Virus record (IMG/VR): IMGVR_UViG_3300044655_001360
Length of the DNA: 64,000 nucleotides
Strand: one strand, 5' to 3'
Origin: a virus
Position 1 is the stretch's first letter. Each line of letters starts with the position of its first letter. This document shows, one piece after another, positions 1 to 56,283 of this stretch. Below the pieces are notes generated by a model. It did no database searches. It saw only the letters and a list, made by a program, of their open reading frames with translations, and had not been told where the DNA came from. A program made the translations under genes and the position numbers.

Positions 1-89
1 GAATTACTGATCTATTATCTTTTAGTTATGATGTTCTTATAGATGATCTTATTGATGTGAGTTATTAATTGAATTATCTTTTAGTTTAA

Positions 90-226
90 AATGTATGTGT
101 TCGTATGGAGTTTATAATGTATGTGTTCATTTGGTAAAAAGCTATAAGGGAATCTAAAATGTATGTGCGCGAATGGAAACAGCTAAAATGTATGGGTTCG
201 AATGCATCTAAAAATGTATGTGCGCG
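90..226. repeat. Five copies of AATGTATG(T/G)G(T/C)(T/G)C(G/A) in AT-rich DNA (iteron-like)
   Basis: Copies start at 90, 116, 158, 187 and 213; same orientation; no ORF here. Confidence 0.75.
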
Positions 227-374
227 TGGCTTAAGCAGGTATCTATTAGGTACATTATCTTTTAGAATTCATTTAATCTTATATGCTCCTACAATTATTA
301 AAATCAATAATTAAATCTATTATTAAAGCGACGCGCCAGCGGAGCCCTCACTGCGGGTTGTGGAGCTGAACATC

Positions 375-800
375 TTAACCCGAAAAACTCGGGTTAATTC
401 AAAGGACAATGGACATTTCTAATTGTGGAACTAAAATGTCCAAGGGTTCTGCGTACAAGCATCGCATCACAGTAGCATGTAGAGCATTACAGAGGCGGTC
501 AGCCGGTACCTCGAGCTCAGTCTTATTAATCTGACGGTGGCCACGTAAACAACAGCTACCTCATCTACGTGACGTGGGTTTTCTCAACCCATCTTTAGCC
601 TTGGTTATTCGTTTTTGCTATAGTTCAAATGGGTTGTATGAAGGCATATCCCATAACTCATCTGGTGGGGTAGTGAACTATATCTCCGTTGCTAATGTCG
701 GAACTTCCATCCCCTGTGATTCAAGTAGACCAGGGTTTAAGGGCACGTAATGGTCGCCTGTGCGCGGCTTTCTTAGCAATTCTCTCACCTTTCTATGTTC
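375..800 (-). ncRNA. Candidate large structured non-coding RNA (family unassigned)
   Basis: ORF-free, GC-richer than flanks. Nested helices: 712-716/731-735, 619-627/674-682, 575-580/586-591, 540-549/564-573 (G-U pairs only on minus strand), 482-485/515-518 enclosing 492-495/509-512, 410-418/434-442, 375-383/389-397. Lies downstream of minus-strand promoters. Confidence 0.6.
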
Positions 801-869
801 TATCTAGTAATTCGGTGAGCAAGTTTGGCGGGTGCCTAAAAGATAATTGAGTAATTGCTTTTGTGCGAG

Positions 870-1075
870 TAGACTTTGTGTCGGTAAGAATTGAGATGGT
901 CTCTGTAAGTAAAAGAAATTATAGACTTTGTGTCGGTAAGAATTGAGATGGTCTCTGTAAGTAAAAGAAATTATAGACTTTGTGTCGGTAAGTATTGAGA
1001 TGGTCTCTGTGAACTGCTTTTGTGTAAGTAGACTTTGTGTCGGTAAGTATTGAGATGGTCTCTGTAAACTGCTTT
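870..1075. repeat. Tandem array, 4 x ~37-bp unit TAGACTTTGTGTCGGTAAG(A/T)ATTGAGATGGTCTCTGT, period 52/52/55
   Basis: Units start at 870, 922, 974 and 1029; partial copy TTGAGATGGTCTC near 1146-1158; linkers are short and repeated. Confidence 0.95.
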
Positions 1076-1098
1076 TGGGTAATTCTTTAGTATGGTTA

Positions 1099-1127
1099 AT
1101 TGTAACTTAGTTAATCCCTGTTGTCAA
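1099..1127 (-). promoter_or_regulatory. sigma70-type promoter TTGACA-17-TACAAT firing into the repeat array and ncRNA
   Basis: Minus strand reads TTGACA acagggattaactaagt TACAAT. Confidence 0.75.
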
Positions 1128-1189
1128 TACTTATGTGAATTTATTTTGAGATGGTCTCGGTAATGTTCTTGTATAGATTGATTATACTC

Positions 1190-1196
1190 TATTTAG
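1190..1196 (-). promoter_or_regulatory. Late-type promoter core CTAAATA upstream of the non-coding locus
   Basis: Same motif precedes structural genes elsewhere in the window. Confidence 0.45.
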
Positions 1197-1251
1197 CAGA
1201 GAAAAACAGCATTTATTGTTAACTATTAAGAAAATAATAGTCAACAAACAG

Positions 1252-1671
1252 TTAACAATACTCAATAGCTCGCATAGCCAGTTCATCAGCACGTTCATTG
1301 CCAGGAATTCCTGAATGGCCTTTGATCCATTGCCAAGTGACATTGTGAGGTTTAGCTGCTGCAGCCAGTGCATGCCATAAGTCTGGATTAACGAAATTGG
1401 TACGACCATTCTTAATCCAATTAGGATACCATTTAGTGATTCCATCTACAACATATTTTGAATCACTATAGATTGTGACATCACATGGTCTGGTTAAGGC
1501 ATTTAATGCTTGGATTGCTGCCATTAGTTCCATGCGGTTATTAGTAGTACCATCTACACCACCAAAGAGTTCTTTTTCTTTGTTGTTGCACATAAGTACA
1601 GCACCCCAACCACCCTTTCCGGGATTAGGAATGCATCCACCATCAGTATATACGATTACCTTGTCTTTCAT
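1252..1671 (-). CDS. rnhA: Ribonuclease HI (bacterial type)
   Basis: [52 protein letters not shown] motifs. Confidence 0.97.
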
Positions 1672-1702
1672 AATATTACATTTGATAAGAATAAAATGAT
1701 AT

Positions 1703-2224
1703 TTAGTCTGGCGAAATAGTGCTTAATTGCTTGACTAATTGATGATTATGTTGCCAAAAAGAATCATAATCAAAGATTTGCCAGTGACCAAACTTAACTG
1801 AAGTGTAATTGGTATGAGGGTGTGATAAGTCCCATCCTTTGTCAGATTCAACCGCAACGTACTTTCCTTTACGTGTGATCTTAAACATGAGAATATTCAT
1901 ATCATTTGGATCTGCCACTTGAACCAATTGACCTAGCCAAGTTTCAAGTTGTTTGACTTCACCTGAGTATAATTGATGAAAAGGAAAATCTGCATAGTTC
2001 TTGGCTTCACTATTAAAGGAAGTCCATTCGGTTGGTGGGATAATATCACCTTTGAAACTTTGGATTTGACCAGCATCTAATACGGCTTTTCGCTGCGTGT
2101 TTTTACCTCCAACAAAGGCACCACTACCTTGGCATCTCAAAAATTTTAGATTGTAAATGGAGGATAAGTGATTTGCAATCTCACGTTCCCATGTATTGCC
2201 TTTGTTTTTTGATTTGCTGGTCAT
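1703..2224 (-). CDS. Holliday-junction resolvase-like PD-(D/E)XK nuclease
   Basis: [12 protein letters not shown]-terminus, GSGA, GDI...SEAK motif typical of phage Hjc-like resolvases. Confidence 0.75.
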
Positions 2225-2323
2225 AGTAGGTTCACTTGTTTCGGTTAGTAGTGAACCTATTTATCAGGTGGGATTTTGCTAAAAGATAATACTACCGCAG
2301 TGAGTTAATCATCTTTTAGACAA

Positions 2324-2349
2324 CAAAAAGCCCAGAATTATCTGGGCTT
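2324..2349 (-). terminator. Intrinsic terminator after gp46
   Basis: AAGCCCAGA/TCTGGGCTT stem with a minus-strand U-tract. Confidence 0.8.
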
Positions 2350-2367
2350 AGTGGATTCGATTATCTT

Positions 2368-4137
2368 TTAGACTATATCCACGTCAGTGGCATAATGAGT
2401 AAACCCACCTTCCTTGATAACTTTCAGCACGTGATTAACTCTACTAGTTAAGTCATCTCTGTGTGAAATCAAGAACACATTTTTGTTACGTTCACGAGTC
2501 ATTTGTTTTAGAACAGAGATACTGCATTCAACACCAGATGAATCTAAACCAGAATCTAGCAACTCATCGATGAATAACAAATTGATTGGTTGATATAAGT
2601 TCTCCCAAACATCTCTAAAAGACCAGCTTAAAGACAAGATTAAACGATTCATCTCACCACGAGATAGGTTGTAGAAATCTAAATCTTGACCTAATTGGGT
2701 AATCGATACAGATAAATCATTTTGGAATTCTACTTGATGTGGTAGACCCAATTGACCTAAGTAAACAGAAAGTCTTTGATTCAAGAATGCCAAGTTTTGA
2801 TCGATTATACGTTTACGAATAAAACTATTCTTGTTAGTTAACAAGTTATAGAGAAAGTCTTGATGCTCTTTAACTCGAACCAATTCATTCATTTTATCCC
2901 ATGAAACATCTTGGATAGCAGTCGTTTTCAAGTCTTCGATTTGTTCTAAGTACGGATTGGTTTCAGCTAACTTACTAGTCAACTCTTTCTCCAGTGAAGC
3001 AATTGTATTCTTGTGATTCAAGGCTTGTTCTAGGGTATCATACTTAACAGTTGGACAAGGACCAATCTCACCTAAAGTAATGATAGCTTCATCTAACAAG
3101 TCTAATTCTTCTTTATGTGAAGCAATTGACTTTAAACTAGTTTGGTATTGTTCACTTTTAGTAGCTAATAACTGTTCATGTTTGTCGTCATGTAACTCTT
3201 GACCACAGGCATGGCATTTATGTTCTGCTAAGTGAACTAACTCTTGCTCTAGTGATTTAAGAACACGTTCTTCTCGTTCAACTGCAGTAGATTGCTTTGC
3301 AATTAATGAGTTAATACTATCACGTTCTTTCTTACTAGCATGCCAAACAGTATACTCTCGTTGTGCTTGAATCTCGGCATCAATGTCAATTGGACTTAAT
3401 CGTTCAATATCTTTGTTGATAGAAATAACTGCTCTATCACGAGTTTCATTCCACATCTTTTCTTTACGAATTAAGGCTTCGATGCTTTGTTGAATACGGT
3501 CATTCGATGCTTGTACTGTAGTAATACGAGTGTTTTCATAGGTGATTGCATCTTTAGATTCCTTAACAAGAACCTTTAAGACTTCTGCTTTTTCACTCAA
3601 TTGGGTAATACCAAGTAACTGTTCAATGATTTCTCGTTGTTCGCCTGGTTTCATTCCTAAGAATGGAACTGTGAAGGTATTCAGAGCAATAATATGCTTG
3701 AACATCTCATGTTTCATGCCTAAGATTTCTTCAATAGCCTTTTGGGTTTCTCTTGAATCACCTTGGCTTTCATCTAAATCCTGTAGAACTTGATCCTTGC
3801 CATTGATAGAAAACTTCAAGATATTTGGTTTTCTACCACGTTCAATCCGGTATTCAACACCATCTTTATCAAATGTAACAGTAGCTAACATAGCTTTACC
3901 GTTAATCTTATTGATAAGGTTTTCACGTTTGATATTAGTCAGTGCAGAACCAAATAAAGCATAGCTTAAGCCATTGACGATACTGGTTTTACCAACTGAG
4001 TTTCGTTTATCAGTACCACCCAAGTCTAAGTTTTCACCTAAAACTAAGGTAAGTAAACCTTGGTCAAAGGCAATGCTTTGTGTTTGATTCCCAATCGATA
4101 GGAAGTTTTTAATCGTAAGATTCTTAATTGTTATCAT
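2368..4137 (-). CDS. gp46: Rad50/SbcC-like recombination ATPase (T4 gp46-like)
   Basis: KNFLSIGN start, Walker A ...VGKTS, zinc hook CHAC, signature LSRGE, Walker B FIDE, LISH. Confidence 0.95.
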   Translation of the reverse strand: MITIKNLTIKNFLSIGNQTQSIAFDQGLLTLVLGENLDLGGTDKRNSVGKTSIVNGLSYALFGSALTNIKRENLINKINGKAMLATVTFDKDGVEYRIERGRKPNILKFSINGKDQVLQDLDESQGDSRETQKAIEEILGMKHEMFKHIIALNTFTVPFLGMKPGEQREIIEQLLGITQLSEKAEVLKVLVKESKDAITYENTRITTVQASNDRIQQSIEALIRKEKMWNETRDRAVISINKDIERLSPIDIDAEIQAQREYTVWHASKKERDSINSLIAKQSTAVEREERVLKSLEQELVHLAEHKCHACGQELHDDKHEQLLATKSEQYQTSLKSIASHKEELDLLDEAIITLGEIGPCPTVKYDTLEQALNHKNTIASLEKELTSKLAETNPYLEQIEDLKTTAIQDVSWDKMNELVRVKEHQDFLYNLLTNKNSFIRKRIIDQNLAFLNQRLSVYLGQLGLPHQVEFQNDLSVSITQLGQDLDFYNLSRGEMNRLILSLSWSFRDVWENLYQPINLLFIDELLDSGLDSSGVECSISVLKQMTRERNKNVFLISHRDDLTSRVNHVLKVIKEGGFTHYATDVDIV

Positions 4138-4162
4138 AGTAGTCGAGGTAGTTAAGTGAAAG

Positions 4163-4525
4163 TTATGTTAACAGGAAATTAGTACAACGGTCAACAACTT
4201 CTTGTCGATTGGCGTTAAAATCAGATTCCCAAACAACCAGTAAAGAATAACCATTGTCAATGGCGTATTGATTCTTGTGATAATCAGAAGTCCACGTCTC
4301 AAAAGCAGTTTTCTTTGTAGTTGGATTAACAAAGTCTTCGGCATAAAGCAATGGATGCGCATGCCAGAAATCACCATGAAACTCAATTATCTTGTTTTCA
4401 TATCGAAAGTCATATCGATAATGCCTTTTTGAACCACTACGAACATACGGTATATAGAATTGCTTTTCAATCTCTGGGAATACAGAACGAAACTGTTCAA
4501 ACAAATAGGTTTCTTGTATACTCAT
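4163..4525 (-). CDS. Vsr/DUF559-like endonuclease (homing-endonuclease catalytic domain)
   Basis: YDF...IIEFHGDFWH...GY.LLVVWE; ATG at 4525 preceded by GGAGG. Confidence 0.8.
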   Translation of the reverse strand: MSIQETYLFEQFRSVFPEIEKQFYIPYVRSGSKRHYRYDFRYENKIIEFHGDFWHAHPLLYAEDFVNPTTKKTAFETWTSDYHKNQYAIDNGYSLLVVWESDFNANRQEVVDRCTNFLLT

Positions 4526-4534
4526 CAACACCTC

Positions 4535-5551
4535 CTACAGTTCTTGATAGATTGCCATCAACAAATTCTTATCAAATGATTCAGTATCAATTGATTCAAT
4601 TTGACTCATAACAATAGTATCAACTGTTTCAAAACTAATATCAACTGGAGTTAAGTCAGGATTAATATCTGCTTTAGAAGGAACCAAGTGCATCTCACGA
4701 AGATTGTATTGCGGTATGAAAGTTTCCTTGATGAAGTTTGCTTCTTCAAATGTAATAGGAATATCAATAGTTACACGGCAATGCATACCTTCTTTAAGCA
4801 ACTTATCGGGTTCACTGATAACTTCACTTAACTTGTATGATCTATAAGTAGGTTGTTTAGGCCATGAAAGATATTGAGGTTCACCACCCCATTCTAAAAT
4901 CATCATACCACGGGCATCATCACCAGCATCCGCATAATTGTGTGGAAACGCATTGCCAATGTAGTTGATATTGCCATTAGATTGTCTTTGATGGAAATGT
5001 CCACTAAATCCAAGTTCGTATGGTTTGAACTGTTCATTACGAATTTCACCGGTATCTGGCATTCTTACCATAGAGTTTAAGAAGAAACCAGGCAGTTCAA
5101 AATGACCAAAGATATATCGACCACCTGTCTTACCAACAGTTTTCCATTCATCACCAATCAACCAAGGACAAAGAGTCACATTACCAATAGTCATTGGTTT
5201 TTCAACGATTGTAATCCCTGGTATGAACTTACTATAGATAACACTGCATACGTCTCTACGATCTTTTAAGTACAAATCGTGGTTGCCTGGTAAGAAATAG
5301 AACTTTTCAAATGCAGCACCCATTTTTTCAAGGCATCGTACACTGTAATCCATAGATAGAATATTAAGTGAACTTCTATTGTGGTGGAAGTCACCTAAGA
5401 ACATACCAACTTCACAGCCATTAGCCTTTGCTGTTTCGATAAACCAATCGATGAATTGTTCACAATCTTCATTGTGAGTGGTTGAATTAGACTTAGCACC
5501 AATGTGCAAATCTGTGAATACTGCTACTTTCTTAAAAAGATTATCTGTCAT
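4535..5551 (-). CDS. gp47: Mre11/SbcD-like nuclease (T4 gp47-like)
   Basis: Metallophosphoesterase motifs FTDLH, LGDFH, GNHD, GHFE, SGHFH. Confidence 0.95.
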   Translation of the reverse strand: MTDNLFKKVAVFTDLHIGAKSNSTTHNEDCEQFIDWFIETAKANGCEVGMFLGDFHHNRSSLNILSMDYSVRCLEKMGAAFEKFYFLPGNHDLYLKDRRDVCSVIYSKFIPGITIVEKPMTIGNVTLCPWLIGDEWKTVGKTGGRYIFGHFELPGFFLNSMVRMPDTGEIRNEQFKPYELGFSGHFHQRQSNGNINYIGNAFPHNYADAGDDARGMMILEWGGEPQYLSWPKQPTYRSYKLSEVISEPDKLLKEGMHCRVTIDIPITFEEANFIKETFIPQYNLREMHLVPSKADINPDLTPVDISFETVDTIVMSQIESIDTESFDKNLLMAIYQEL

Positions 5552-5858: not shown

Positions 5859-5940
5859 ATTATAGCTAAAAGATAATGGAAGTCAATTGTGATTTAATTA
5901 TCTTTTAGGTATTGACTATAGGTTTATTATACTATATAGT
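5859..5940. promoter_or_regulatory. Divergent sigma70-type promoters containing two ATTATCTTTTAG motifs
   Basis: Minus: TTGACT-16-TATAAT; plus: TTGACT-17-TATAGT; motif at 5866-5877 (-) and 5897-5908 (+). Confidence 0.65.
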
Positions 5941-6793: not shown

Positions 6794-6813
6794 AGTAGTG
6801 GATCGATTGTCTT

Positions 6814-7662
6814 TTAGTCAACGTCAATCCAAGTATAACCATCATTCGTCCTTTCTCCATAGGTATCCGAGTTCATTCTTGTATGACTAGGATTTAAACC
6901 TGCACTTTCAAGAATGTCATCACGAATTTCACGATTTCTTTTCTCTATGTTTATCACACGTAAGAAGGCGTTTGTGCAACATTGTGTGTAGAAACTGAAT
7001 GGATTTGATGATTTAGACTCGTCAAATTGAAGAGCAACCTGCGATAATTGTAGGATTGCTTGCCCTCGCATCTCATCTATGTAGGTGTAGCCACGGACGT
7101 TACTACGCGAAGAATAGCGATCAGCCAATTTCATTAACATCTTACCTAATAAGTTAGACATCTGACCTTTTGTGATACTGAAATGGCCGGTATCGACATC
7201 ACCATCCCAATGGCTTTTACCAACACAAACCAACTCTTTATTCTCATTGAATTTCCAATGTTGGAAAGGTGGGAAGTTTACTTTAGCACGACCATCAGCA
7301 ACAGTTTTAACCGTTTTCTTACGGTCTGGCTGCAGGGGAATGTGGTCAAACGTCATGATTCTGAATATTAAATCATTTTCACAAATTGTGGTGTAATCGA
7401 CTTCAAATTCGATTGCTGGAATTTTCTTACCAGCTTCTAGTTGGGCTTTCTCGTGCGCTGCTCTTGATAAGCGAGTAGCACGGCTTTGTTTAGCATCGTT
7501 TATTGTATCTTCATTAATTTCACCGATATCAGTTACGATGCAATCATAGAATCCGAATTCAGGTTTTGTATATGAACAAAAAGTGTTTTTACTTGCATGA
7601 ATTGCTTTTAGTAACTCTTTGTTCGTCAAATACTTTGCTTTTGGTACTACGTGGTCAGCCAT
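6814..7662 (-). CDS. gp55: Late-transcription sigma factor (T4 gp55-like)
   Basis: YL.NKELL, RGYTY.DEM, FDE.KS.NPF.FYTQ...NAFLR.I..EK; start moved to MADH (GGAGAG SD). Confidence 0.88.
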   Translation of the reverse strand: MADHVVPKAKYLTNKELLKAIHASKNTFCSYTKPEFGFYDCIVTDIGEINEDTINDAKQSRATRLSRAAHEKAQLEAGKKIPAIEFEVDYTTICENDLIFRIMTFDHIPLQPDRKKTVKTVADGRAKVNFPPFQHWKFNENKELVCVGKSHWDGDVDTGHFSITKGQMSNLLGKMLMKLADRYSSRSNVRGYTYIDEMRGQAILQLSQVALQFDESKSSNPFSFYTQCCTNAFLRVINIEKRNREIRDDILESAGLNPSHTRMNSDTYGERTNDGYTWIDVD

Positions 7663-17098: not shown

Positions 17099-20000
17099 AT
17101 GACAGATCAATTATACCCAAAAAGCCAACTGCCAATTAGAAAAACTGAAGAGTTATTGCCAGGGGTTTTCCAAACAGATGCAAATAAGAAATTCATGTCA
17201 GCCGTGGTTGACCCATTGGTACAGCCTGGTCTATTAGAAAAGACCGTTGGTTATGTTGGTCGTCGATATGGAAAAACCTTTGTTGGCTCTGACATTTACT
17301 TAGATTCTGACAACTCATTGCGTAGTAGATATCAATTAGAGCCAGGTGTTGTTTTCAATAACAATGGAACTATTGATAACTTCTATGATTACATTGATTT
17401 CAAGAATCAATTGAAGTTCTTTGGTAATACCGTTGAACGTGATGATTTAATTACTTCACAGGAACATTATTCTTGGAACCCACCAATTGTTTGGGATAAA
17501 TTCATTAACTATAGAGAGTACTATTGGGAACCAAATGGCCCATTGTCAGTTCCAGTTAACGGTGAGTTGAATACTTTCGTTGTTAGTGAATATGATGTAT
17601 CTATCGATAGTAATTCGTTTGTGTTTAATCCAAAGTCGGAAATACCATTAAACAATCCAACGATCAACTTGTATCGTGGTCAAACTTACAAATTTAATGT
17701 AAATGCACCAAAAGAAGGTTTTATTATACGGAATAAGTATGATACTGGTTCATTGATGTATAACTACATGTATTCTTATATCAATGGACAGTTGGCTGTT
17801 TATGACAATCAGTTATTGAGAGCAAAACATACTATACCATCACATTCAGTTCCAACTTTACCAGATACCGTTCTTGATTGGGAAGTAGTTCAGTTCATTT
17901 ACCAAGCGGAGATTTCTTATTACAATCCATCAACGGAATATACCGTTGGTGAATTCGTTGTATTTGATGATTTCTTATGGCAAGCTACTGTAAACATTCC
18001 AGTTAATACAACTACGACTGTTACTACCGACAAATGGCGTAACTTTGGTGTTGTTGTTAACACACCAACATTAGATTACACTAAAGGAATTACTAATAAC
18101 GGAACTTCATCTGGTACAATTACTTTTGTTGTTCCATTTGATGCACCAGATGAACTATATTACCAAAGCCCAATCGACCCAAATAAGTTTGGTCGATTCA
18201 TAATTGATGACATCACTACTAATACGAAAACAATTGAAGTTGATAAAACCATAATTGGGATGAAAAACTACACAAGTGGTGATGGGATTGTGCTTACCAA
18301 CGGTATGGTAATTCAATTCTATGGATCAGTATCTCCCGCCAAATATGCATCAGATACTTGGTTGGTTAATGGGGTTGGTAGTGCAATAACATTGATTAGA
18401 TTTTCAGATTTAACAACTCCGACTATTTCAAAAGATGTACCTACTGTTATGTTTGATAACAGTGGTTTTGATACTGAACCATTTGATAACGCTGCATCAT
18501 ATCCGGGTTCACAAGATTATATTACTATTTCACATGCTAGTGTAGATTCAAACCCATGGAGTAGATACAATCGTTGGTTCCACCGATCAGTTTTAGAATA
18601 TTCGTGCAAACTTCGTGGCGTAGAATACTCTGCACCTGAAGAAATGCGTGCAAAACGACCAATCATCGAGTTCACAGCCAATCTTCAATTGTTTAACCAT
18701 GGTACACATGCTAAACAAGCAGTTGACGCGGTTGATAATATTACTACCGACGTATTTTCAACAATCGAAGGTGCTCGTTCATACAATATTGATGGATTTG
18801 AATTATCATCAGGTGTTAGAATACTAATTACGGCAGATAAAGACGGATTAGCTAATAACAAAATCTACAAAGTAACTTTTGTTGCCGACCAGCAAACAAA
18901 TGCACCTGTGATACATTTAGTTGCAGTTGATGATACTAATCCAATTATTGGGGAATGTGTACTAGTTAAATCTGGTAAGGAATTTGGTGGGTCCATGTAC
19001 CATTTTGATGGTACTTCTTGGAAACTAAGCCAAGCCAAAACCAGTCTGAATCAAGCACCACTGTTCGATATTTTTGATGAAAATGAAGTAAGTTTGGCAA
19101 ATACTGAAACTTACCCAGCAAGTAACTTTACTGGATCTAAGATTTTAAGTTATAAAGTTGGTAATGGTAGAACCGATTCTCATTTGGGATTCAGTTTAAG
19201 TTACTTGAACATCAATAACATCGGTGATATTCAATTTAACTGGAATTTTGGCACAGATACCTACATTTTCGTCGAAAATAACAACAAAATCACGAGAAAA
19301 GTAGCAACTGGATATTACAGAACTAACTTCATTGGTTCTGAATACGCTAATGGCTGGATTGCAACTGATAATAAGTACATTCAACCTGTTATTGACAGCT
19401 TTGTTGTAAAAGAAGCAACTAACGAAATCAATTTCACACCTATTAACTTCTATGAATCTATTCAAGATGCGTGGACAGTTAAGTTTTACTTGAATGGTGA
19501 GCCATTAACTGCGAGCTATACTCGTGATCAAAACCTGTTTACATTCAGTCAAACATTTACAATTGGTGATGTGGTATCAATTAAGGTAATTTCAGCAAAT
19601 GACCCAGATACTGGTTACTATGAAATACCAGTTGGGTTGGAAAAGAATCCGTTGAATACTGAATTAGATACATTCACCCTAGGTCAAGCAGATGATCATG
19701 TTAAATCAGCAGTTGATTTTCATGACAGATTTACAGGTACTATTCCAGGAATATCGAATTTAAGAGATATTGACAACTATCAACAGTTTGCTACCAGATT
19801 CTTAAAACATTCTGGTATAACTCCACTTGCTATTAGTACATTATGTGATAAAGACCAGAATATTATCAAAGCATTACGATATGCTAAGAAAATGTACATT
19901 GAATTTAAGAATAACTTCTTAGATAGAGCAGTTATGATGCCATTATTACCAGCAGCAGACACTGTTGATGATATTATTGCATCTTTGACGAAAACAAAAA

Positions 20001-23000
20001 CGGTTGATAGCCCATTTGCCTATTCAGATATGATTGGTAGTGGTGCGTATACGAAATTAACCTATACAGTTGATAATACGGACGTCACTACCTATGCATT
20101 ATCTAATAAGTTTAACCTAATAGACTTGAGCAATAATGCTGTCTATGTATACATTAACCGACTGAATTTAAAAGGTACATACACTAAAACTCAGTTATTA
20201 AACACCAAAGATTATCAGTTTAATGATGTTTATGGGTATGTTACGATTTCGTATGCACTGAATGTTGGTGATATTATTGAAATCAGAGAATATGTTTCAA
20301 CTGCTATCAATTATATACCAACAACACCATCTTCTATTGGTTTGCACAAAGCATACACGCCAATGATCTTTACAGATGATACTTATACAACACCAAGATT
20401 AGTCATTCAAGGTCACGATGGTAGTATCACTGCAGCATATGGGGATTTTAGAGACGAATTGCTGTTAGAATTGGAAATGCGTATCTATAACAACATAAAA
20501 CAGCAATATGACCCTGCTATTTTTGATATCGATGCGATTTTAGGTGGTTATTATAACACAGGAATGTACACTAAACAACAATTAGATAGTTTAATTCAGT
20601 CAGAATTCTACAAATGGATAACTCCATCTAATATTGACCATGTTCATAATAATTGGTATGAAGAGTTAAATGCATTTACTTATACCTATAATCAATCATT
20701 AGATCCAACGCTTACTCAAAAGTTGCCTGGTTACTGGCGTGGAATCTATAACTGGTTCTATGATACCGATCGACCACATCGATGCCCTTGGGAAATGCTT
20801 GGTTTTTCAGAACAGCCATCTTGGTGGGAATCAGAATACGGTTCTGCACCCTATACCAGTGAAAACTATATTCTATGGGAAGATTTGCGTGATGGTACTA
20901 TAAGACATGGAGTCCGTAAAGGAACATATGCGAGATATTCTCGTCCAGATTTACTAAATCATATCCCAGTTGATGGAAATGGTAAACTTATTGACCCAAT
21001 TGCATCTGGATTAGTCAATGATTTCAACACATTTACACAACAAGACAACTTTGCAGTGGGTGATATAGCTCCTGTTGAATATTCGTGGCGTTCAAGTTCA
21101 GATTGGCCATTCGTAATCAGCATTGCTCTTTGTTTATTGAAACCATTTGAGTACATTACTGATCGATTCGATATTTCAAGAACTAAACTGAATAAATTAG
21201 GACAAACTGTTCATAAAGATACTTCATTGTTTGTTACCTTGGATGATATTGTAGTACCAACTAACAATGAATTCTCAGTTGGCTTGGGTACATACTTAGT
21301 TGATGAAATTAAATCAAAAGGTATCGATGCTGCGATTATCGAAAAGAAAATTAAGAATTTGGATGTAAGATTATCGACAAGAATGTCAGGGTTTGTGGTT
21401 ACAGATCAGCAGCATTATCTTTTAGATAGTAAACACCAATCAGCGGTTGGTAATGTTTTTGTGCCACCTGAAAATGTTGATATCATTTTCAATGTTAGTT
21501 CATCCGTTAAAACTATTACTTATAGTGGTGTTATTGTTGAAAAAACAAATGGCGGATGGTTTATATCTGGTTACGATCGTAATAATCAATTCTTCAACTA
21601 TTATGGTGTTAATCCAGCAAACAATGACCCACAAATCACATTAACACCGGTTGATAACTCGTTATTGATGTCAGTTGGTGGTGTAAGCCAACCATTCACT
21701 GAATGGCAACCAAATGTTACTTATAAGAATGGTGAAATCGTTAAGTATCAAACCAAATTCTTTAAAGCATTGCGAACTAATATTAGTGAAACATTTGATA
21801 ATACGTATCATGACTGGCAAATGATGAAAAACTTACCAACAACTGGTGAGGTAACTGCACTTAAGCGAACATCATATAATAAATTTAGGCTTAAAGTGTT
21901 AAATTATGGTACTAAACTTGGTTCTATCCAAGAAGTTATTGATTTCTTATTTGGATATGAAGAATACCTGAAGAGCGTTGGCTTTGTATTTGATGGTTAT
22001 GATACTGCGACTCAATCTCCAATTAACTGGACAACAAGTGCCAAAGAACTTATGTTCTGGACAAAAAGTAACTGGGCGGAAGGTTCGTTAATCACATTAA
22101 GTCCAATTGCATCTAAAATTGATATTTCAATGGGTGGCGGTGTTGCTGAAAGTGTAATTGATGGATTTTACGAATATGAAATATTAAAAGCTAATGGGCA
22201 ACCTTTCCAGTTGAATGAAATCGATATCACTCGTTCATTCCAAAAGATAACTGTTTCACCTAATGCTAGTACAGATGGTATCTATTATTTGAATTTGTAT
22301 TGTGTGCTAAAAGAGCATGTTGCTATTTTTGATGATAGAACTGTATTCAATGATGTAATTTACGATAAGCCAACTGGTTATAGACAAGGTCGTATTAAAT
22401 CACAAGGTTATAGAACTGTTGATTGGGATGGTGATTACACCAGCCCAGGATTCTTGTTTGATAACGTGACTATTTCAACCTGGGCTCCATACACTGATTA
22501 TAAAATGGGAGATATCGTAGCATATCGTTCTAATAATTGGACAAGTTCAGCAAATCAATTAGGAACTGCTAATTTCGACGATACCGCATGGACTAAATTA
22601 GATTCAACACCCACTAAACAGTTGATTGCCAATTATGATTATAAGGTAAACCAGTTTGAGGATTTTTATGATGTAACCTCGGAAGGTATCGGTGAAAATC
22701 AACGTAGTTTGGCTAGACATGCTATTGGTTATCAAACCAGAGAATATTTGCAAGCACTAGCACCAGATCCAGTAACTCAATTCCAATTATATCAAGGATT
22801 TATTCGAGAAAAAGGAACGGCAAATGCAATTAACAAGGTATTTGATAAACTAAGCCGTTCTGGTGATTCTAGTATAGTTATGAATGAAGAATGGGCATTC
22901 CGAGTTGGTCAATTTGGTGGATTAGATCAATTGCGTGAAGTTGAATTCCAAGTTCAAAAAGGAATGTTTAAACTGAACCCACAGGCAATCGAAATAGCAA

Positions 23001-26000
23001 CTGCTGTTACGACACCAGCAAACGATCAAAAATATCAGATAGTGAAAGATAATTTCACGATTGCACCAACACCATACGTTACAAACATTCATCCAGTCAC
23101 GAAAAATGAACCGGTGAGAACTGCTGGTTATGTAAAAACTGATCATGTTGATGTTACAGTTAAATCACGAAATGACATTTTAGCGTTAGATATCACCAAG
23201 ATATACGAAAATGACCACATATGGGTGACATTTAACGATTATTCATGGGATGTATTACGATATAATCAAACTAATCTTAGAATCACTGCACTTGCTGCTA
23301 GTGGAACAAGTTATATGTTGACGTTATCTGAAAGACATGGATTGAACGTTGATGATATTATTGGTATTAAACCAATCAATGTAATAACAGAATTAACTGG
23401 ATTCTTTAAAGTAACTGCAATTGAATGGAATGCTATCACAATTGATGGTAGCGCAATCACAGGAACACCAACCTTACCTGATATTAAACCATTGCATATT
23501 AGTGTATTGACGACTGCCAGATTCAGTAATTATGATAAGGTTGATCCAGAAATGGCTGCTACTTATGTAAAAGGTGCTAAACTATGGATTGATAACAATT
23601 CAACCGGTGATTGGGAAGTTGTTGAGAAACAAAATACTTATACTGATTATGGTTTAAAAGAAACAAATTATGGTATAACGGGAACTCCGTTAAATGCCGG
23701 AACTGCGGTTGCGTATTCAAGTGAATTGGGACAAACCATGGTCGGTGTTGCTGGTTCTGATTATGTGTTGGTATACGAAGGAACTTCTTTTACAAAAAGA
23801 AAAATCTTAATCAACCCACCAACTAGTTTGGGTGAACACTTAAATGGATCATTTGGTGCGACAATCACCTTATCACCAGATTCACGATTCATGGCTATTG
23901 GTGCACCAAAAGCAAGTTACGTGCATAGTAACTTCAATGACAGACCTTACCTACCAGCCAATGATTATTCGTATGGTGATATTGTACTGTATGATGACAT
24001 GATATGGGAAGCAACCTTAGATATTATTACAGATGGAAGTTCAAATTCAATTTATTCCGAAGATTGGAGACCAGCATCAATAGTACCAGCGACATCAGTT
24101 GGTAGAAATTCCGGTTATGTAAATCAAGGTGCAGTCGCAATCTATGAAAATACCGATATTGGTTGGAAGTTAATGCGTACATTCATTAGCCCAAGACCAG
24201 CCGATGACAAATTCTTTGGATCAGAAATAGCAATTGGTGTTGCAACTGATGGCACGTATACGATGGCCGTTACTTCAACGAATGGTACTGGCCAAGTTTA
24301 TATGTATGAATTCCTTGGAACTACATGGAAACATTACAGACATGCCACTACCGTAAATCAATACAATCCTTTCTTAACTAATGGACTTTCAGTTGCAATT
24401 AGTAAGGATTGTTCAACTGTATTAGTTGGAAAACCAAATACAGGCAATGGCGAAGTTATTCCATATGTACTTCATTCTAATCATCAATATGCTGCAATTG
24501 CAACTATTGGAAATACTACAGGTAATGTAGGAGACCTGTTTGGTTATAAAGTTGCATTGAGTGAAGATGGATCCACTGCCATTGTTTCTAGCCCTAATGC
24601 TGATGTTATGGTACCAGATCAAGGTTCCGTTTATGTAATTCCTAAATTAAACGGGGTTTATGACAGAACAAAAGAGCAACAATTACAGAGCTTTGATGCT
24701 TTATCTAATGAACTGTTTGGTACTTCATTATCTTTTAGTGCGACTGGTAACACTCTAGCTGTTGGTGCTAAAAATACATTATTCACACAATACTATACAT
24801 TTGATAGTGGTAAAACTGTATTCGATGAAGATAATACACAATTTGTAACATCAATTGGTAGTGCTGGTGGAGTTTATGTATTTGAAAAGAAAGGGTCTAA
24901 GTATTTCTTAACCTCCAAACCAACACCATCTGACATTGCTATGGTTCCATATGAATCATATGGTCATGCAGTTGCTTGTACTGACGATGTTGTCGTTGTC
25001 GGATCACCAACTTATGTGGCTCAAGGTGCCAGTGACCAGATTGGTATGGTTCGTTTATTTGCACAGGACAAATTCGTTAACTCGTGGAATACAATTGCAC
25101 ATCAATCTGCAGTGGTTGATATTACAAAAATCAAAAGTGTTGAGCTATACGATGACGTTAAGAATATCAAAATACAAGATTTGGATTATGTTGATCATGC
25201 AAAATTGAAAGTTCTTAACTACGCAGAGCAAGCAATTACCTATAAAACATTATATGACCCAGCGGTATATACAAATGGTACTGATGATACAACGCAAATT
25301 ATTGAACCATCACAATCTTGGGAAGATTCACATGTTGGTAAATTGTGGTGGGATGTATCTTCTGTAAAATGGGTATATGCTGAACAAGGCGATTTTGCAT
25401 ACAGAACAGGCCATTGGAATCAAATGGCAACTGGTTCTAGTGTAGATATCTATGAATGGGTTAAAACCAAGTTATTACCGTCGGAATGGGCTTCGTTGGC
25501 TGATACAAATGAAGGTATATCTGTAGGAGTTTCAGGGAATCCATTGTATCCTAATGATGATGTATTAACAGTTAAAACTTTATACAATACTGTTACTGGT
25601 GTTGCGACCGATACATTCTATTATTACTGGGTTAAAAATCCTGTAATAATACCAAGTGGATCAACTAGAACAGTGTCTGCATCGGATGTTTCAACGGCTA
25701 TTTCAAACCCAATTGGGACTGGTATTGCATTTGTTGCATTTACTGGTGAAAATGAATTATTAACATTCAACCTTGGTGCTAAAATGTCATCTGACACGGC
25801 ATTAATTAATACCATCTATTACAAAGATGATTCTGCGTTGATACCAGTTCATAATGAATATCAATTACTAACAGAAGGTGTAGCATCTAGTATACCATCA
25901 CCTCAATTGGAATTAAAATGGATTGATAGTTTAATTGGTGCTGATTCAGCAGGTAACAGAGTTCCTGATGATAGATTACCGGTAAAACAACGTTATGGAT

Positions 26001-29000
26001 TATCTTTTAGACCAAGACAAAGTATGTTTATTGATAGAACTAATGTTCTACAATCTGCAATTGAGCATATTAATGGCGTGTTAGTAAAAGCACCATTCAC
26101 AAGCAGTGTTAATTTTGAAATCTTGAATTCAATTGATCCGGTACCAACCGTTGAATCTAATAGATATGATACGGTAGTTGATTCATTTATCGACTTACAA
26201 TACGTTAATACTGGTAATGCACAACAAGCTGTTCTTGAACTTGGGTTGACCAATGGAAAAGTAACAGAAGTTACTATTGTAAACCAAGGTTATGGATACA
26301 AACCATCAATCCCAGTTTATGAAAACTTAGATTTACCATTATACAACTACAAAGGCACTGGTTATAAAGGACCATTGGTAACGGTTAACGGGAATGGTTC
26401 TGGTGCAGTTATTGAATTGATTATCGACAATTACGGTCGTGTAATCATGGCTAAAATCAAGTACAGTGGTAAAAAGTACAGCATTGCGTCTGCAAACGTT
26501 AGACCGTTATCTGTATTGGTTAGAGCAGATGAAACTGTTGATAATTTCTGGAGTATCTATGAATGGAATGCTAATATTAATCAATTTAGCCGTACTGCCA
26601 CCCAACAATACGATGCTACTAGATATTGGTCTTATATCGATTGGTGGAAATCTGGTTACGGATTATCATCAAGAATAGTCAAAGAAATCCAAAATATCGT
26701 TTCGATGAATGATTTAGAAACCGAGGTTGGTGACTTAATCAGAATCAAAGAATACGAAAATGGTGGATGGGCTGTATTTGAAAGAATCGCAGCTGAAGGA
26801 GAGCTTACTGCTGTAACTAATTATGATTTAGCAGTATTCTCTGACTACTACACAATAGTTGGTCGTGAAAATGGAACTATCCAATTGAGTGATATTCTAT
26901 ATAAAACTACATTTGGATATGATGGAGTTTCCCCGTTTGATGGTATTTCATACGATAGAGATTTTACACGAGAACTTCGTTTGATTTTACAAGCAGTAAA
27001 ACAAGATATCTTTACTAGTGAATACACGGTTGAATGGAATAACTTGTTCTTCTCAAGTATACGTGCAGCATTTGCTGAACAGATGTACATCGATTGGGCA
27101 TTTAAAACAAGTTTCATTACGGCTACCCATAATATTGGTCCGTTCAAACAATCATTGCATTATAATAGTGATAACTTGAGTAGTTTTGAAAGTTACATCA
27201 ACGAAGTTAAACCATATAGAACTACTGTTAGAGAATACATTAGTAAGTATGATTCAATTGAAATGGCAGTAACTGGTATGTCTGATTTTGATTTACAACC
27301 AGCGTATAATTACGAATATGGTAAAATCATGCCAATGAATAGTTTAACTACATTTAGTGGATATCCATGGAAATGGTGGTCTGATGATCATGCTTATTCA
27401 GTTACTGAAATCGTAGTCCACGATCAAGGTTCTGGTTATGAAATGGCACCCGCAGTTAAAATATCAGGTAGTGGAACTGGTGCAATCGCAAAGGCGTATA
27501 TCGCTAACGGAAAAGTAACCAAAATCAAAATAACTTCGGGTGGTTTTGGATACTTGGCTGCACCAAAAGTAGAATTATCTGGTGGCAATCCAATAAGCAA
27601 TGCAACAGCAGTGGCATTCATTGGTGATAGTAATGCTCGTATGTTTGATTTAACCATGAAATTTGATAGGATTTCAAAAACAGGATCAGTTGAAGGTTTC
27701 ACTTATACAGATTCATTCCCAATAGTAAGCGGTGATTCATCATCTTTTAGATTGACGTTCCCAGCAAATGAACAAAAATCTAAAATAAAAGTAACTAAGA
27801 ATGGTAATGTTATTTTAGGTGATTCGTTTAGTATAGTAACTACTGCAGTTAATGATCTTTTGGTGAGTGATTTGGTATTGAACGAAATACCAAAAGCTAA
27901 TGATTCAATCGTTATAACTTACGAGAAAACTGATGCTATTTTAGATGCGGTTGATAGAGTTGAAAAGTATTACGATCCAACTGCTGGAATGAAAGGTAAA
28001 CAATTATCGCAATTGATTACTGGTATCGATTTTGGTGGTGTTCAAATACAAGGTGCAACTTTCGATGTATCTGGTGGTTGGGATGCGATGCCATGGGCTA
28101 CTGATACATGGGATAGTATTGAATCTGATAATACTCACTGGCATTATTGTGAAGCTATTGACGAGAATCACCCAGAGATTCCAGATAATACCTTGCAAAT
28201 TACGTTACCGTATACACCAGCTACTGGTCAGCACATCAACGTTTATATCAAACCAGCTGATCCAAATAGAATTTTAAAATTGCAACCATATGGCTTGAAA
28301 GCATCACCATATTCTAAACCACCTGAAATCATAAGAATTGATGATATTGCCTATACTCCACAGTGGGATTCTGCTAGTACGGTAAACCCATATGCTGTTA
28401 TGCCAACTTTTGTTGGTGATGGATCTAATAAAGTGATTTCAATCGGTTCGCATATTAGTACATTTAAAGGTGATATTATCATACTTAGAATGGCTACTAG
28501 TGATGGCTCAATGGCGATTGATGATCCAAGTATCATCGATACAAATTTACAAGGTGGAACATTAGCATATATGAATGGTGCATATTCAACTGCAACTGGA
28601 TTAACAGCAGATGAAATTGCTATTGATGGTGGTGTGTTTATTAGTAAAGCTCATGTACCTGCAACTGAAGAAAATATTCCAGGACAAGTATTAGATAGTG
28701 TTAGCATTCGTGTATTTGATGAATCTGCAAATAGCGCAGCACCATTGCATAGCAGATATACAACTGGTGATGACGTAACATCTACTTTTGAGATTGGTAT
28801 GAAAGTAATTGACTCAACCGCTGTTATTGTAACAGTTGATGGTATTAAACGTAAGTTAGGAACTGACTACACCTTAGATGTTGTAAGCAGTACAATTACA
28901 TTCAAAACACCACCAGTTTCTGGTAAATTGATTTCGATTGATGCGATTGGTGTCGGTGGATTGGGTATTATAGCTAGTAATACATTTACTGCTAATGGTA

Positions 29001-52180: not shown

Positions 52181-53171
52181 AATACCATTCCTTAATTTCA
52201 TTGATGACAGTCTCTTTGTCTTTATACCATGCTTTTTCCCAGATTACAAATACTTCATATCCTTGATTATTGGCATATGTACGTTTTGCTTGATCGCGGG
52301 ACCAAATGAAATAAGCATGTTGTCCTTTTTGTTTAAAGTAAAAATCTCTATCATATAAGTCTGGATCAGCATGCCAGTATGATCCATAAAACTCAATCAA
52401 CTTCTTACGCGATGGATCACCGTAATCATATGGTCCAATATGTGGATTATCTAGTCTAAAGGATAATTGTAAATCTGGCATTACTGCAACTAAATCCTCA
52501 TATGCAGATAATTCGATTTTTGATTGTATTCGTTCAACCGATGCACGACCAATACAAAACGCATCATACTTTTCAGTTCCATCTTCAAGACCATAAGTTT
52601 CCACAAAATATTCCAATGACGTGGTATATCGTTGTTGCTCGCAGTATATATTCCAATTAACCATACCAGCAACTACACCATGGCGGTCTATCATGTTTTG
52701 TATCGTTTGAGATCTTGAATTATTATACGCATTGAATTCATCAATAGTCATACCATATTTTGCTTCCTTGTACTCGAAGGTGTTAGTTTCTGCCTGTACA
52801 TCACAGTAACTTTTCCATCTGATCTTTCCTTCTTCTTCGCCGTATTTTTCAATCATCGCGGCTTCTGTAACACCGCACAATTCTTTTAAGTTTTCTGACA
52901 CGATTGGCGATGTTGGATACCTATGTATATATTCCGCTATTGTAATACTTTCAACACATTTACTTTTCAAATGGGTTGGTGTGATACGTTTATATGATTT
53001 CCCACACATTGCACATTTCACTTGGCTATTTGGGTCCGCAGAATCGACGGATCTTCTACTAACACCATACTTGTTAGTCTTTATGGTTATCCCATTAACA
53101 GGGGGGTTAACGCCCAACGAGTTCAATAACTCACCATACAACTGTTTTGTTTCATCGTCAACATTGTTCAT
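52167..53171 (-). mobile_element. Free-standing homing endonuclease (Zn-finger, YG repeats, Vsr-like domain) between the split-intein halves
   Basis: C..CGK.....H; three (K/R/T)(Y/H)G...G...(W/Y)..(Y/F)C repeats; YDY....KLIEFYGSYWH...GY.V.VIWE. Confidence 0.85.
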
Positions 53172-56262: not shown

Positions 56263-56283
56263 TTGTTCGATTATCTTTTAGAA

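What the first reader, a model, noticed from the sequence alone, without database searches (positions are those of the whole stretch)
375..1196. Promoter-driven ~700-nt non-coding transcript: repeat array, ornate RNA fold and AT-rich iterons next to RNase HI
Seen: a near-consensus TTGACA-17-TACAAT promoter (1099-1127) and a CTAAATA late motif (1190) both point left into 1.1 kb with no ORF. The transcript would carry four ~37-nt repeats, each with a small GAGA/UCUC hairpin, then a ~400-nt domain of nested helices. G-U pairs work only on the minus strand, and there is a possible pseudoknot (loop GGUAG at 556-560 with CUACC at 669-673). Two strong hairpins close it. It lacks the tmRNA, RNase P and group I/II core motifs I know. 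Inference: either an undescribed large phage ncRNA, or a ColE1 RNA II / T4 R-loop-like replication primer RNA matured by the adjacent RNase HI, with the AT-rich iterated region (1-300) as the unwinding zone.
Basis: partly seen in the sequence, partly recalled or inferred. Interest (0 to 1): 0.85.

Follow-up and report, generated by a model that had tools for sequence, protein, structure and literature searches.

The report
Full-length Polynucleobacter-1 phage RNA gene
The gene-free stretch next to RNase HI in this giant T4-like phage encodes a real, heavily knotted non-coding RNA of about 400 bases. Its first third is the catalogued but unexplained Rfam motif Polynucleobacter-1, and nothing supports the idea that it primes DNA replication.

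Summary
Window 618-768 (minus strand) matches Rfam RF01718, Polynucleobacter-1 RNA, at 80 bits against a cut-off of 37. A profile of the uncatalogued 3' part of the family, built without this window, hits only 611-465 (E 1e-22). About 114 viral contigs and 10 Polynucleobacter-type bacterial genomes carry relatives. On 66 representatives, 88 proposed pairs in 18 helices, including four pseudoknot-type pairings, are 92% paired against 77% in shuffles. The TTGACA-17-TACAAT promoter is conserved in a related phage. The leader behind it is a hypervariable tandem array with a 52-55 nt period, not 37. RNase HI adjacency is specific to this lineage. In 105 of 118 loci the upstream gene is a small GIY-YIG nuclease, and here it is PD-(D/E)XK plus RNase HI. 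I found no support for a ColE1/T4-type primer or origin. The function is unknown. My best reading is a folded, trans-acting RNA. This scan had already met the family on other DNA (131 notes). This copy is a divergent variant with its own promoter, a repeat leader and no recognisable "twin boxes".

The parts
1252..1671 (-). RNase HI gene (context, not part of the RNA)
   Evidence: Pfam PF00075, E 1.6e-46. The adjacency is kept only in L004.
1190..1196 (-). CTAAATA motif about 55 nt after the rnh stop codon
   Evidence: Read. It is kept in L001, L002 and L004. No function has been shown.
1099..1127 (-). Sigma-70-type promoter TTGACA-17-TACAAT pointing towards the RNA
   Evidence: It matches 11 of 12 positions. 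L004 has the same hexamers and spacer length at the same relative place, although the DNA around it no longer aligns.
851..1083 (-). Tandem array with a 52-55 nt period and 4.4 copies; each unit carries GAGACCATCTC. It would form the leader of the transcript.
   Evidence: Repeat finders. The five exact cores occur nowhere else in the 64 kb. Copy number differs between near-identical contigs (3 cores in L001, 5 in L002 and WIN). L004 has nine 14-nt repeats instead.
1148..1158 (-). Fifth GAGACCATCTC core, upstream of the -35 hexamer
   Evidence: It lies outside the predicted transcript, which favours a role of the cores at the DNA level.
836..847 (-). ATTATCTTTTAG on the RNA strand, between the leader and the RNA. 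It is one copy of a 12-mer found 23 times in the window.
   Evidence: 23 sites against 0.8 expected by chance. Its role is unknown.
773..779 (-). 5' strand of pseudoknot PK1 (UUGCUAA), pairing with 695-689 (UUAGCAA). This is the start of the conserved RNA.
   Evidence: Covariation in the family (ACGG/CCGU, GCAG/CUGC, GUAG/CUAC, UUAUCGA/UCGAUAA). Conservation between WIN and L004 starts at 781.
618..768 (-). 5' domain, the match to Rfam RF01718 Polynucleobacter-1. Helices: S1 768-766/758-756, P1 763-760/746-743, P2 734-728/722-713, P3 702-699/688-685, P4 680-675/626-621, P6 654-650/633-629.
   Evidence: cmscan gives 80.1 bits against a gathering score of 37, E 2e-15, covering model positions 1-141.
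465..611 (-). Uncatalogued conserved 3' core. Helices: H7 591-587/579-575, H8 571-561/552-542, PK3 560-555/476-471, PK2 535-531/502-498, H9 518-509/495-482 with the conserved loop GGUACCGG..ACCGCC.
   Evidence: An nhmmer profile built without this window gives E 1e-22 and is the only hit in the window.
411..441 (-). Long AU-rich hairpin at the position of the family's H11 hairpin
   Evidence: Fold of -11.2 kcal/mol, z -3.3. There is no sequence similarity to the family here.
330..397 (-). Two closing hairpins (397-375 with 9 bp, and 374-330, weaker). This is the likely 3' end region.
   Evidence: Neither has a U-tract. Most relatives have two different conserved hairpins at this position.
14..265 (.). 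AT-rich iterated region: five copies of TAAAATGTATGTG on the + strand (87-222) and three copies of CTAAAAGATAAT on the - strand (14-25, 73-84, 254-265)
   Evidence: It lies upstream of the next gene, a 798+ aa ORF seen in L002. It is not conserved in the RNA family.

Best explanation
Window 781 to about 375, minus strand, is a gene for a large folded non-coding RNA. It is the full-length form of the Rfam motif Polynucleobacter-1; earlier notes of this scan call it the 'twin-box' phage RNA.

Shown:
- It is homologous to more than 100 phage copies and 10 bacterial copies.
- It has a covariation-supported architecture of about 18 helices with four pseudoknot-type pairings (S1, PK1, PK2, PK3).
- These helices surround nearly invariant unpaired stretches: GGGAUGGAA, CACUAYCC, AAGGC-AAAGA and GGUACCGG..ACCGCC.

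Inferred:
- In this lineage the RNA is made from the conserved sigma-70-type promoter at 1127-1099, through a repeat-bearing leader of about 300 nt, giving a primary transcript of about 700 nt.
- It ends at the hairpins at 397-330.
- The mature RNA is about 400 nt long.
- It acts in trans as a folded RNA, either as a binding platform for a protein or ligand or as a ribozyme-like core, during the DNA-metabolism phase of infection. It does not act as a replication primer.

The identity and the fold are well supported (about 0.9). The mode of action is a guess (about 0.35).
For: - RF01718 scores 80.1 bits against a cut-off of 37 over the full model.
- An independent 3'-domain profile gives E 1e-22 at 611-465.
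- About 114 of the 118 viral contigs found with a degenerate pattern carry the RNA.
- 92.0% of cells are paired against 77.2% in shuffles and 34-43% when the partners are slid. 71 of 88 pairs show changes on both sides, and no shuffle out of 500 reaches the observed values.
- Many G-U pairs would be A-C on the other strand.
- The RNA is better conserved between WIN and L004 (85-86%) than the flanking genes (76%). The substitutions cluster as compensatory changes in P1, P4, H7, H8 and PK3.
- The promoter is kept in L004 although the leader is not.
- The region has 44-50% GC in a 36-37% GC genome.
- The RNA keeps its structure in three different contexts: after a GIY-YIG gene, after PD-(D/E)XK with or without RNase HI, and next to DUF6641 in bacteria. 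This argues for an autonomous gene.
Against: - The start, the end and any processing of the leader are therefore inferred.
- No canonical terminator was found.
- Folding energy is not exceptional.
- In most relatives the RNA abuts the stop codon of the upstream nuclease gene, which would also fit a role in cis.
- The last 90 nt or so here have no sequence similarity to the family, and the family's twin boxes are not recognisable.
- Nothing identifies a partner or an activity.
Confidence: 0.8

Rival explanations
1. Replication primer or origin. The transcript forms an R-loop, the adjacent RNase HI trims it to a primer, and the AT-rich iterons at 1-300 melt.
For: A promoter, an RNase HI gene, an AT-rich iterated tract and local repeat arrays sit together here and, except for the iterons, in L004.
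Against: - RNase HI adjacency is confined to this lineage.
- Covarying pseudoknots show selection on the RNA fold, not on a hybrid with DNA.
- The same RNA sits singly in bacterial chromosomes beside DUF6641.
- The iterons and repeat arrays are not conserved in the family and are replaced even in L004.
- GC skew changes only where gene orientation changes.
Confidence: 0.05
2. A cis-acting 3' element of the upstream nuclease or DNA-metabolism operon. The fold would stabilise, terminate, process or insulate the mRNA at the border with convergent late genes.
For: In 105 loci the RNA begins at the stop codon of the GIY-YIG gene and is followed by convergent baseplate genes. No separate promoter is evident in those loci.
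Against: - Here and in L004 the RNA is detached from any ORF, by 458 nt after rnh in this window, and has its own conserved promoter.
- The bacterial copies are divergent from their neighbouring gene.
- About 18 helices, pseudoknots and invariant loops are far more than a 3'-end stabiliser needs.
Confidence: 0.1
3. An RNA partner (guide, activator or inhibitor) of a small nuclease that has no DNA-binding domain.
For: - A GIY-YIG-only protein of 142 aa lies directly upstream in 105 loci.
- A PD-(D/E)XK protein takes that place in L065 and lies one gene away here.
- One bacterial copy is followed by a protein with a GIY-YIG-type N-terminus that matches defence candidate PDC-S14.
Against: - The GIY-YIG protein occurs in 496 cultured phages. 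In the four cultured-phage loci I inspected there was no match to the RNA, and in the three annotated ones there was no room for it downstream.
- Nine of the 10 bacterial copies have no such neighbour.
- No complementary target of the twin boxes was found, and this window lacks the boxes.
Confidence: 0.05
4. The repeat arrays (GAGACCATCTC five times at a spacing of about 52 nt, and TAAAATGTATGTG five times) are DNA-level protein-binding sites. They would be operators, iterons or a centromere-like array that controls the promoter or the neighbouring gene, independent of the RNA's function.
For: - The 52-55 nt spacing is about five helical turns.
- One core lies upstream of the -35 hexamer, outside the transcript.
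- The cores occur nowhere else in the 64 kb.
- The RNA hairpin they could form is negligible.
- The arrays vary in copy number and are swapped for another repeat in L004.
Against: No binding protein has been identified. Hypervariable arrays may be neutral products of replication slippage.
Confidence: 0.3

Closest known systems
Polynucleobacter-1 RNA motif (Rfam RF01718; Weinberg et al. 2010, Genome Biol 11:R31, PMC2864571)
   Same: The window matches the full model at 80 bits, with the same helices and the same invariant GGGAUGGAA and CACUAYCC. The family comes from fresh water. Most members lie downstream of the GOS11034-type gene, which is the GIY-YIG gene here.
   Different: - The Rfam model covers only 141 nt, whereas the RNA is about 400 nt long with three further long-range pairings (PK1, PK2, PK3).
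- The 2010 paper found no copy in any purified phage. Here it sits in contigs of T4-like phages up to 345 kb long.
- This copy is a divergent member, less than 48% identical to every other cluster.
- It has no GIY-YIG neighbour.
- It has its own sigma-70-type promoter and a repeat leader.
- Its tail is specific to this lineage.
Large ornate bacterial and phage RNAs of unknown function (GOLLD, ROOL, HEARO and similar)
   Same: It is several hundred nucleotides long, has many pseudoknots and invariant loops, is associated with phages, and has no known function. This comparison rests on my own knowledge.
   Different: No Rfam family other than RF01718 matches window 1-1300 at E up to 1. I saw no sequence or architectural similarity.
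ColE1 RNA II and T4 oriF/oriG R-loop primers
   Same: A promoter-driven non-coding transcript of several hundred nucleotides lies next to an RNase H gene.
   Different: The link to RNase H is not conserved. The selection is on the RNA's tertiary fold. The family also has chromosomal copies in bacteria. There is no evidence for an origin.
Type III toxin-antitoxin antitoxin arrays (ToxI-like)
   Same: A promoter is followed by a tandem array of short direct repeats.
   Different: No toxin ORF follows the array; the structured RNA follows it instead. The array is not conserved even in the nearest relative.

Membership tests
Rfam RF01718 Polynucleobacter-1 RNA | Covariance-model score above the curated gathering score, over the whole model | tested here: met
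   80.1 bits against 37, model positions 1-141 of 141, window 768-618 minus strand
Rfam RF01718 Polynucleobacter-1 RNA | Consensus helices and the invariant unpaired GGGAUGGAA and CACUAYCC | tested here: met
   The cmscan alignment shows all helices with a few non-standard pairs, and both motifs are present. The helices covary in the family.
Rfam RF01718 Polynucleobacter-1 RNA | Usual context: directly downstream of the GOS11034-type (GIY-YIG) gene | tested here: not met
   The upstream genes here are RNase HI and PDDEXK_15. The context is met in 105 of 118 related loci. Context does not define an RNA family.
Extended ('twin-box') form of the family | Conserved 3' core (H7, H8, PK2, PK3, H9 with the loop GGUACCGG..ACCGCC) | tested here: met
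   nhmmer E 1e-22 at 611-465. The pairings are present in the window sequence.
Extended ('twin-box') form of the family | Two identical 7-nt boxes about 53 nt apart, flanking hairpin H11 | tested here: not met
   In 64 relatives the boxes are 97-98% identical to each other. In the window the profile alignment stops at 465 and no identical pair is found. The best candidates are CCUUGGA and CCUUUGA, which agree at 4 of 7 positions as written, or 6 of 7 with a one-base gap.
ColE1 RNA II / T4 R-loop replication primer | Conserved functional link to RNase H and to an origin | tested here: not met
   The adjacency is kept only in WIN and L004. L005-L011, which have RNase HI, lack the RNA nearby, and most RNA loci lack rnh.
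ColE1 RNA II / T4 R-loop replication primer | Replication starts at or just downstream of the transcript | not testable with these tools
   GC skew follows gene orientation and is uninformative. This needs nascent-strand or S9.6 mapping.
tmRNA, RNase P, group I/II introns and other catalogued RNAs | A match to the family's covariance model | tested here: not met
   A permissive scan of 1-1300 at E up to 1 returns only RF01718. ARAGORN finds no tRNA or tmRNA.
Type III toxin-antitoxin (ToxIN-like) | A repeat array followed by a toxin ORF | tested here: not met
   There is no ORF of 60 aa or more downstream on that strand before the RNA.

The most novel reading that the evidence does not exclude
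The RNA is the RNA subunit of a nuclease system. Small nucleases without a DNA-binding domain (GIY-YIG in most phages, PD-(D/E)XK in this lineage and in L065) would depend on this folded RNA for targeting or control. The family's fast-changing twin boxes would serve as the specificity code.
Probability: 0.04. Interest if true: 0.9.

Novelty: new variant of a known kind. Interest (0 to 1): 0.55.

Why it matters
- An RNA of about 400 nt with this many covarying pseudoknots and invariant loops is in the size and complexity class of ribozymes and ribonucleoprotein cores.
- It is common in uncultured freshwater T4-like and giant phages and also sits in Polynucleobacter chromosomes. Only its first third is catalogued, and its function is unknown.
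- This window adds a natural experiment. The RNA is uncoupled from the usual GIY-YIG gene and has its own host-type promoter, which argues that it is an autonomous gene.
- The window also shows which parts of the RNA are dispensable or replaceable: the tail, the twin boxes and the terminal hairpins.
- It removes the attractive but unsupported idea of a replication primer.

Tried and rejected
- blastn of the region and of a typical family member against 50,697 cultured-phage records gave no match.
- Minimum free energy z-scores do not discriminate the region or the strand.
- The RNAalifold pairing of the two twin boxes with each other was rejected, because variants such as GCAUAAU in both boxes break it.
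- I looked for a covarying partner of the twin boxes inside the RNA. Only the other box and lineage-linked columns came up.
- The large proteins downstream of the RNA (bacterial 799 aa, phage 762 aa and 798 aa) are not homologous to one another.
- The defence-candidate PDC-S14-like neighbour occurs in only one of the 10 bacterial loci.
- DUF6641, the constant bacterial neighbour, is absent from the window, from the fetched phage loci and from cultured phages.
- The regions next to the GIY-YIG homologue in the cultured phages I scanned (Melnitz, Variovorax phage V45v66, C48C1) have no RF01718 match.
- Literature searches found nothing beyond Weinberg 2010.
- An earlier first-stage note reports a second, L004-like copy 5.3 kb past the window's end. 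I could not read that DNA. L004 itself is a collinear orthologous region of a related phage, so the second copy may be another contig of the same data set.

Full report
**What is in the window**

Genes 1252-5551 lie on the minus strand. They encode:
- RNase HI (PF00075);
- a PD-(D/E)XK nuclease (PF24608);
- a Rad50/SbcC-like protein and an Mre11/SbcD-like protein, of the T4 gp46/gp47 type.

Below 1252 there is no ORF longer than 58 aa. Contig L002 of the same phage shows that the next gene starts about 350 nt beyond window position 1, so the gene-free stretch is about 1.6 kb long. IMG/VR contigs of this phage are 37-51 kb long and are rated 9% complete, so the genome is very large.

**Identity of the folded domain**

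A scan of the whole window against Rfam gives one match: RF01718, Polynucleobacter-1 RNA, at 768-618 on the minus strand. It scores 80.1 bits against a gathering score of 37 and covers the full model. A permissive scan of 1-1300 finds nothing else.

The motif was described from freshwater metagenomes and one Polynucleobacter genome. Its function is unknown. It was mostly found downstream of a gene family called GOS11034, and it was expressly not found in any purified phage (PMC2864571). The raw alignment in that paper already shows conserved flanks and a 'tail'.

**Relatives**

About 114 of them carry the RNA, in contigs up to 345 kb long.

Conservation relative to the window runs from about 795 down to about 395 and is strongest at 513-474. 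The window's RNA is less than 48% identical to every other cluster, so it is a divergent member.

A profile of the uncatalogued 3' part, built without the window, hits only 611-465 on the minus strand in the 64 kb, at E 1e-22. It also hits 114 of the fetched sources. The last 90 nt or so of the window's RNA (464-375) are specific to this lineage.

**Structure**

I worked on a MAFFT alignment of 66 representatives that are less than 93% identical to one another. On it I proposed 88 pairs in 18 helices. These include four pairings that cross other helices:
- S1, which forms an H-type knot with P1;
- PK1, between the 5' leader and the P3 loop;
- PK2, between GUUGU-type and ACAAC-type segments, the latter in the loop of the most conserved hairpin;
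- PK3, between the H8 loop and a segment about 80 nt downstream.

The counts are:

| Measure | Observed | Control |
|---|---|---|
| Cells paired | 92.0% | 77.2% in shuffles; 34-43% with partners slid |
| Pairs with changes on both sides | 71 of 88 | – |
| Covariation score | 0.426 | 0.169 in shuffles |
| Shuffles reaching the observed values | 0 of 500 | – |

Caveats apply. I chose the structure on this same alignment, and the shuffle control ignores phylogeny. The slid-partner control and the many pair types per position are the stronger evidence.

Frequent G-U pairs fix the strand as minus.

In window coordinates the helices are:
- PK1 779-773/695-689
- S1 768-766/758-756
- P1 763-760/746-743
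- P2 734-728/722-713
- P3 702-699/688-685
- P4 680-675/626-621
- P6 654-650/633-629
- H7 591-587/579-575
- H8 571-561/552-542
- PK3 560-555/476-471
- PK2 535-531/502-498
- H9 518-509/495-482

MAFFT misplaced the divergent window sequence by one register in several 5' helices, so I read those helices from the cmscan alignment.

Positions 669-673 belong to the nearly invariant CACUAYCC and do not compensate when the loop changes, whereas 476-471 does.

**The nearest relative, L004**

L004 is collinear with the window from the gp47-type gene to rnh, at 76% nucleotide identity. Its RNA is 85-86% identical to the window's. The differences cluster as compensatory changes in P1, P4, H7, H8 and PK3. 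Similarity starts at window position 781, just before PK1.

L004 keeps CTAAATA and a TTGACA-17-TACAAT promoter after rnh. Its leader, however, is nine copies of a 14-nt repeat plus one GAGACCAACTC. Near-identical contigs of the window's own phage differ in the number of cores: L001 has three, and L002 and the window have five. So the promoter is conserved and the leader is hypervariable.

The window's array has a period of 52-55 nt. Its five exact GAGACCATCTC cores occur nowhere else in the window, and one of them lies upstream of the -35 hexamer. As RNA the small hairpin is negligible. I read the cores as possible protein-binding sites on DNA, or as products of replication slippage. This is inference.

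**Context across the family**

In 105 of 118 loci the gene directly upstream, on the same strand, is a 142-aa protein. Its stop codon abuts PK1. The protein consists only of a GIY-YIG domain (PF19835, E 1e-32). Recombination-nuclease genes of the gp46/gp47 type lie further upstream, and convergent baseplate genes lie downstream.

That protein has homologues in 496 cultured phages. In the three annotated records I inspected it follows the ribonucleotide reductase genes in two (Melnitz, C48C1), and none leaves room for the RNA downstream. By size, fold and position it resembles T4 endonuclease II (DenA). That comparison rests on my own knowledge and was not tested.

Locus L065 has the PD-(D/E)XK protein directly before the RNA. 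In the window lineage the order is PD-(D/E)XK, RNase HI, promoter, leader, RNA. Seven other phage loci with RNase HI show no copy of the RNA within 4 kb. The RNase HI adjacency is therefore a feature of this lineage only.

**Bacterial copies**

An exact 25-mer from the published alignment found 10 genomes. They are Polynucleobacter isolates and related metagenome-assembled genomes, some with contigs of 0.3-3 Mb. The four I scanned score 86-93 bits on RF01718. All ten have a divergently oriented DUF6641 gene next to the RNA, in otherwise variable surroundings.

DUF6641 is absent from the window, from the phage loci and from cultured phages. The bacterial 3' domain differs from the phage one. 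The two terminal hairpins of the phage majority type are also present in the bacterial copies.

**Twin boxes**

In the majority type two 7-nt boxes (consensus GGAUGAU) lie 53 nt apart, on either side of hairpin H11. They are 97-98% identical to each other while varying between phages. No complementary partner is detectable within the RNA. I noticed this before consulting earlier notes of the scan, which report the same feature and also found no reader for the boxes. The window lacks a recognisable pair of boxes.

**The origin model**

I found nothing specific in its favour. GC skew flips only where gene orientation flips, near 5.9 kb and 44.3 kb. The AT-rich iterated tract at 1-300 is local to this phage. 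It lies upstream of the next gene together with copies of a 12-mer that occurs 23 times in the window.

**Conclusion**

The finding is a real RNA gene and a divergent member of a partly catalogued family. I judge that it most probably works as a folded RNA in trans. The primer reading is unlikely (about 5%). The function remains unknown, and expression data could not be obtained.

Noticed in passing
window, 23 sites (e.g. 14-25, 836-847, 2279-2290, 2360-2371, 5866-5877, 5897-5908, 6806-6817, 56270-56281): The 12-mer CTAAAAGATAAT occurs 23 times with at most one mismatch, against 0.8 expected by chance. Inside genes the coding strand reads ATTATCTTTTAG in 10 of 11 cases. At three gene ends the motif covers or abuts the stop codon and is followed by a strong hairpin with a T-run. 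Two intergenic pairs are inverted repeats with spacers of 17-19 nt. Neither a promoter nor a terminator reading fits all sites.
   Followed up: partly
L134-L143 (Polynucleobacter and related genomes): Chromosomal copies of the RNA always lie head-to-head with a 145-170 aa DUF6641 gene, in otherwise variable, IS-bearing surroundings. In P. rarus the RNA is followed by a protein of more than 799 aa whose N-terminus has GIY-YIG-type motifs and matches defence candidate PDC-S14 (E 1.5e-51).
   Followed up: partly
L001 against L002 and the window, between rnh and the RNA: Near-identical contigs of the same phage differ by about 110 nt in the tandem array (three cores against five). They also differ in the number of downstream TAAAATGTATGTG-type repeats. 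Both arrays are therefore polymorphic within natural populations.
   Followed up: partly
relatives L012-L129, about 240 and 293 nt after GGGAYGGAA: Two 7-nt boxes (consensus GGAUGAU) lie 53 nt apart and are 97-98% identical within each RNA, yet differ between phages. Each is preceded by GUGAC. No complementary partner was found in the RNA.
   Followed up: partly
window 17099-30649 (+): A single open reading frame of 4516 aa. It carries four antisense copies of the 12-mer.
   Followed up: no
window 4163-4531 (-): A 122-aa ORF is inserted between the gp46-type and gp47-type genes. It has no Pfam match. An orthologue about 70% identical sits at the same place in L004, and part of L004's copy also matches window 52203-52430 weakly (34% identity over 76 aa by tblastx). 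It could be a free-standing homing-endonuclease-like gene, but I did not test this.
   Followed up: no
beyond the window's end (not readable): An earlier first-stage note reports a second, L004-like copy of the promoter plus RNA about 5.3 kb past position 64000. It could be a paralogue or another contig of the same data set.
   Followed up: no
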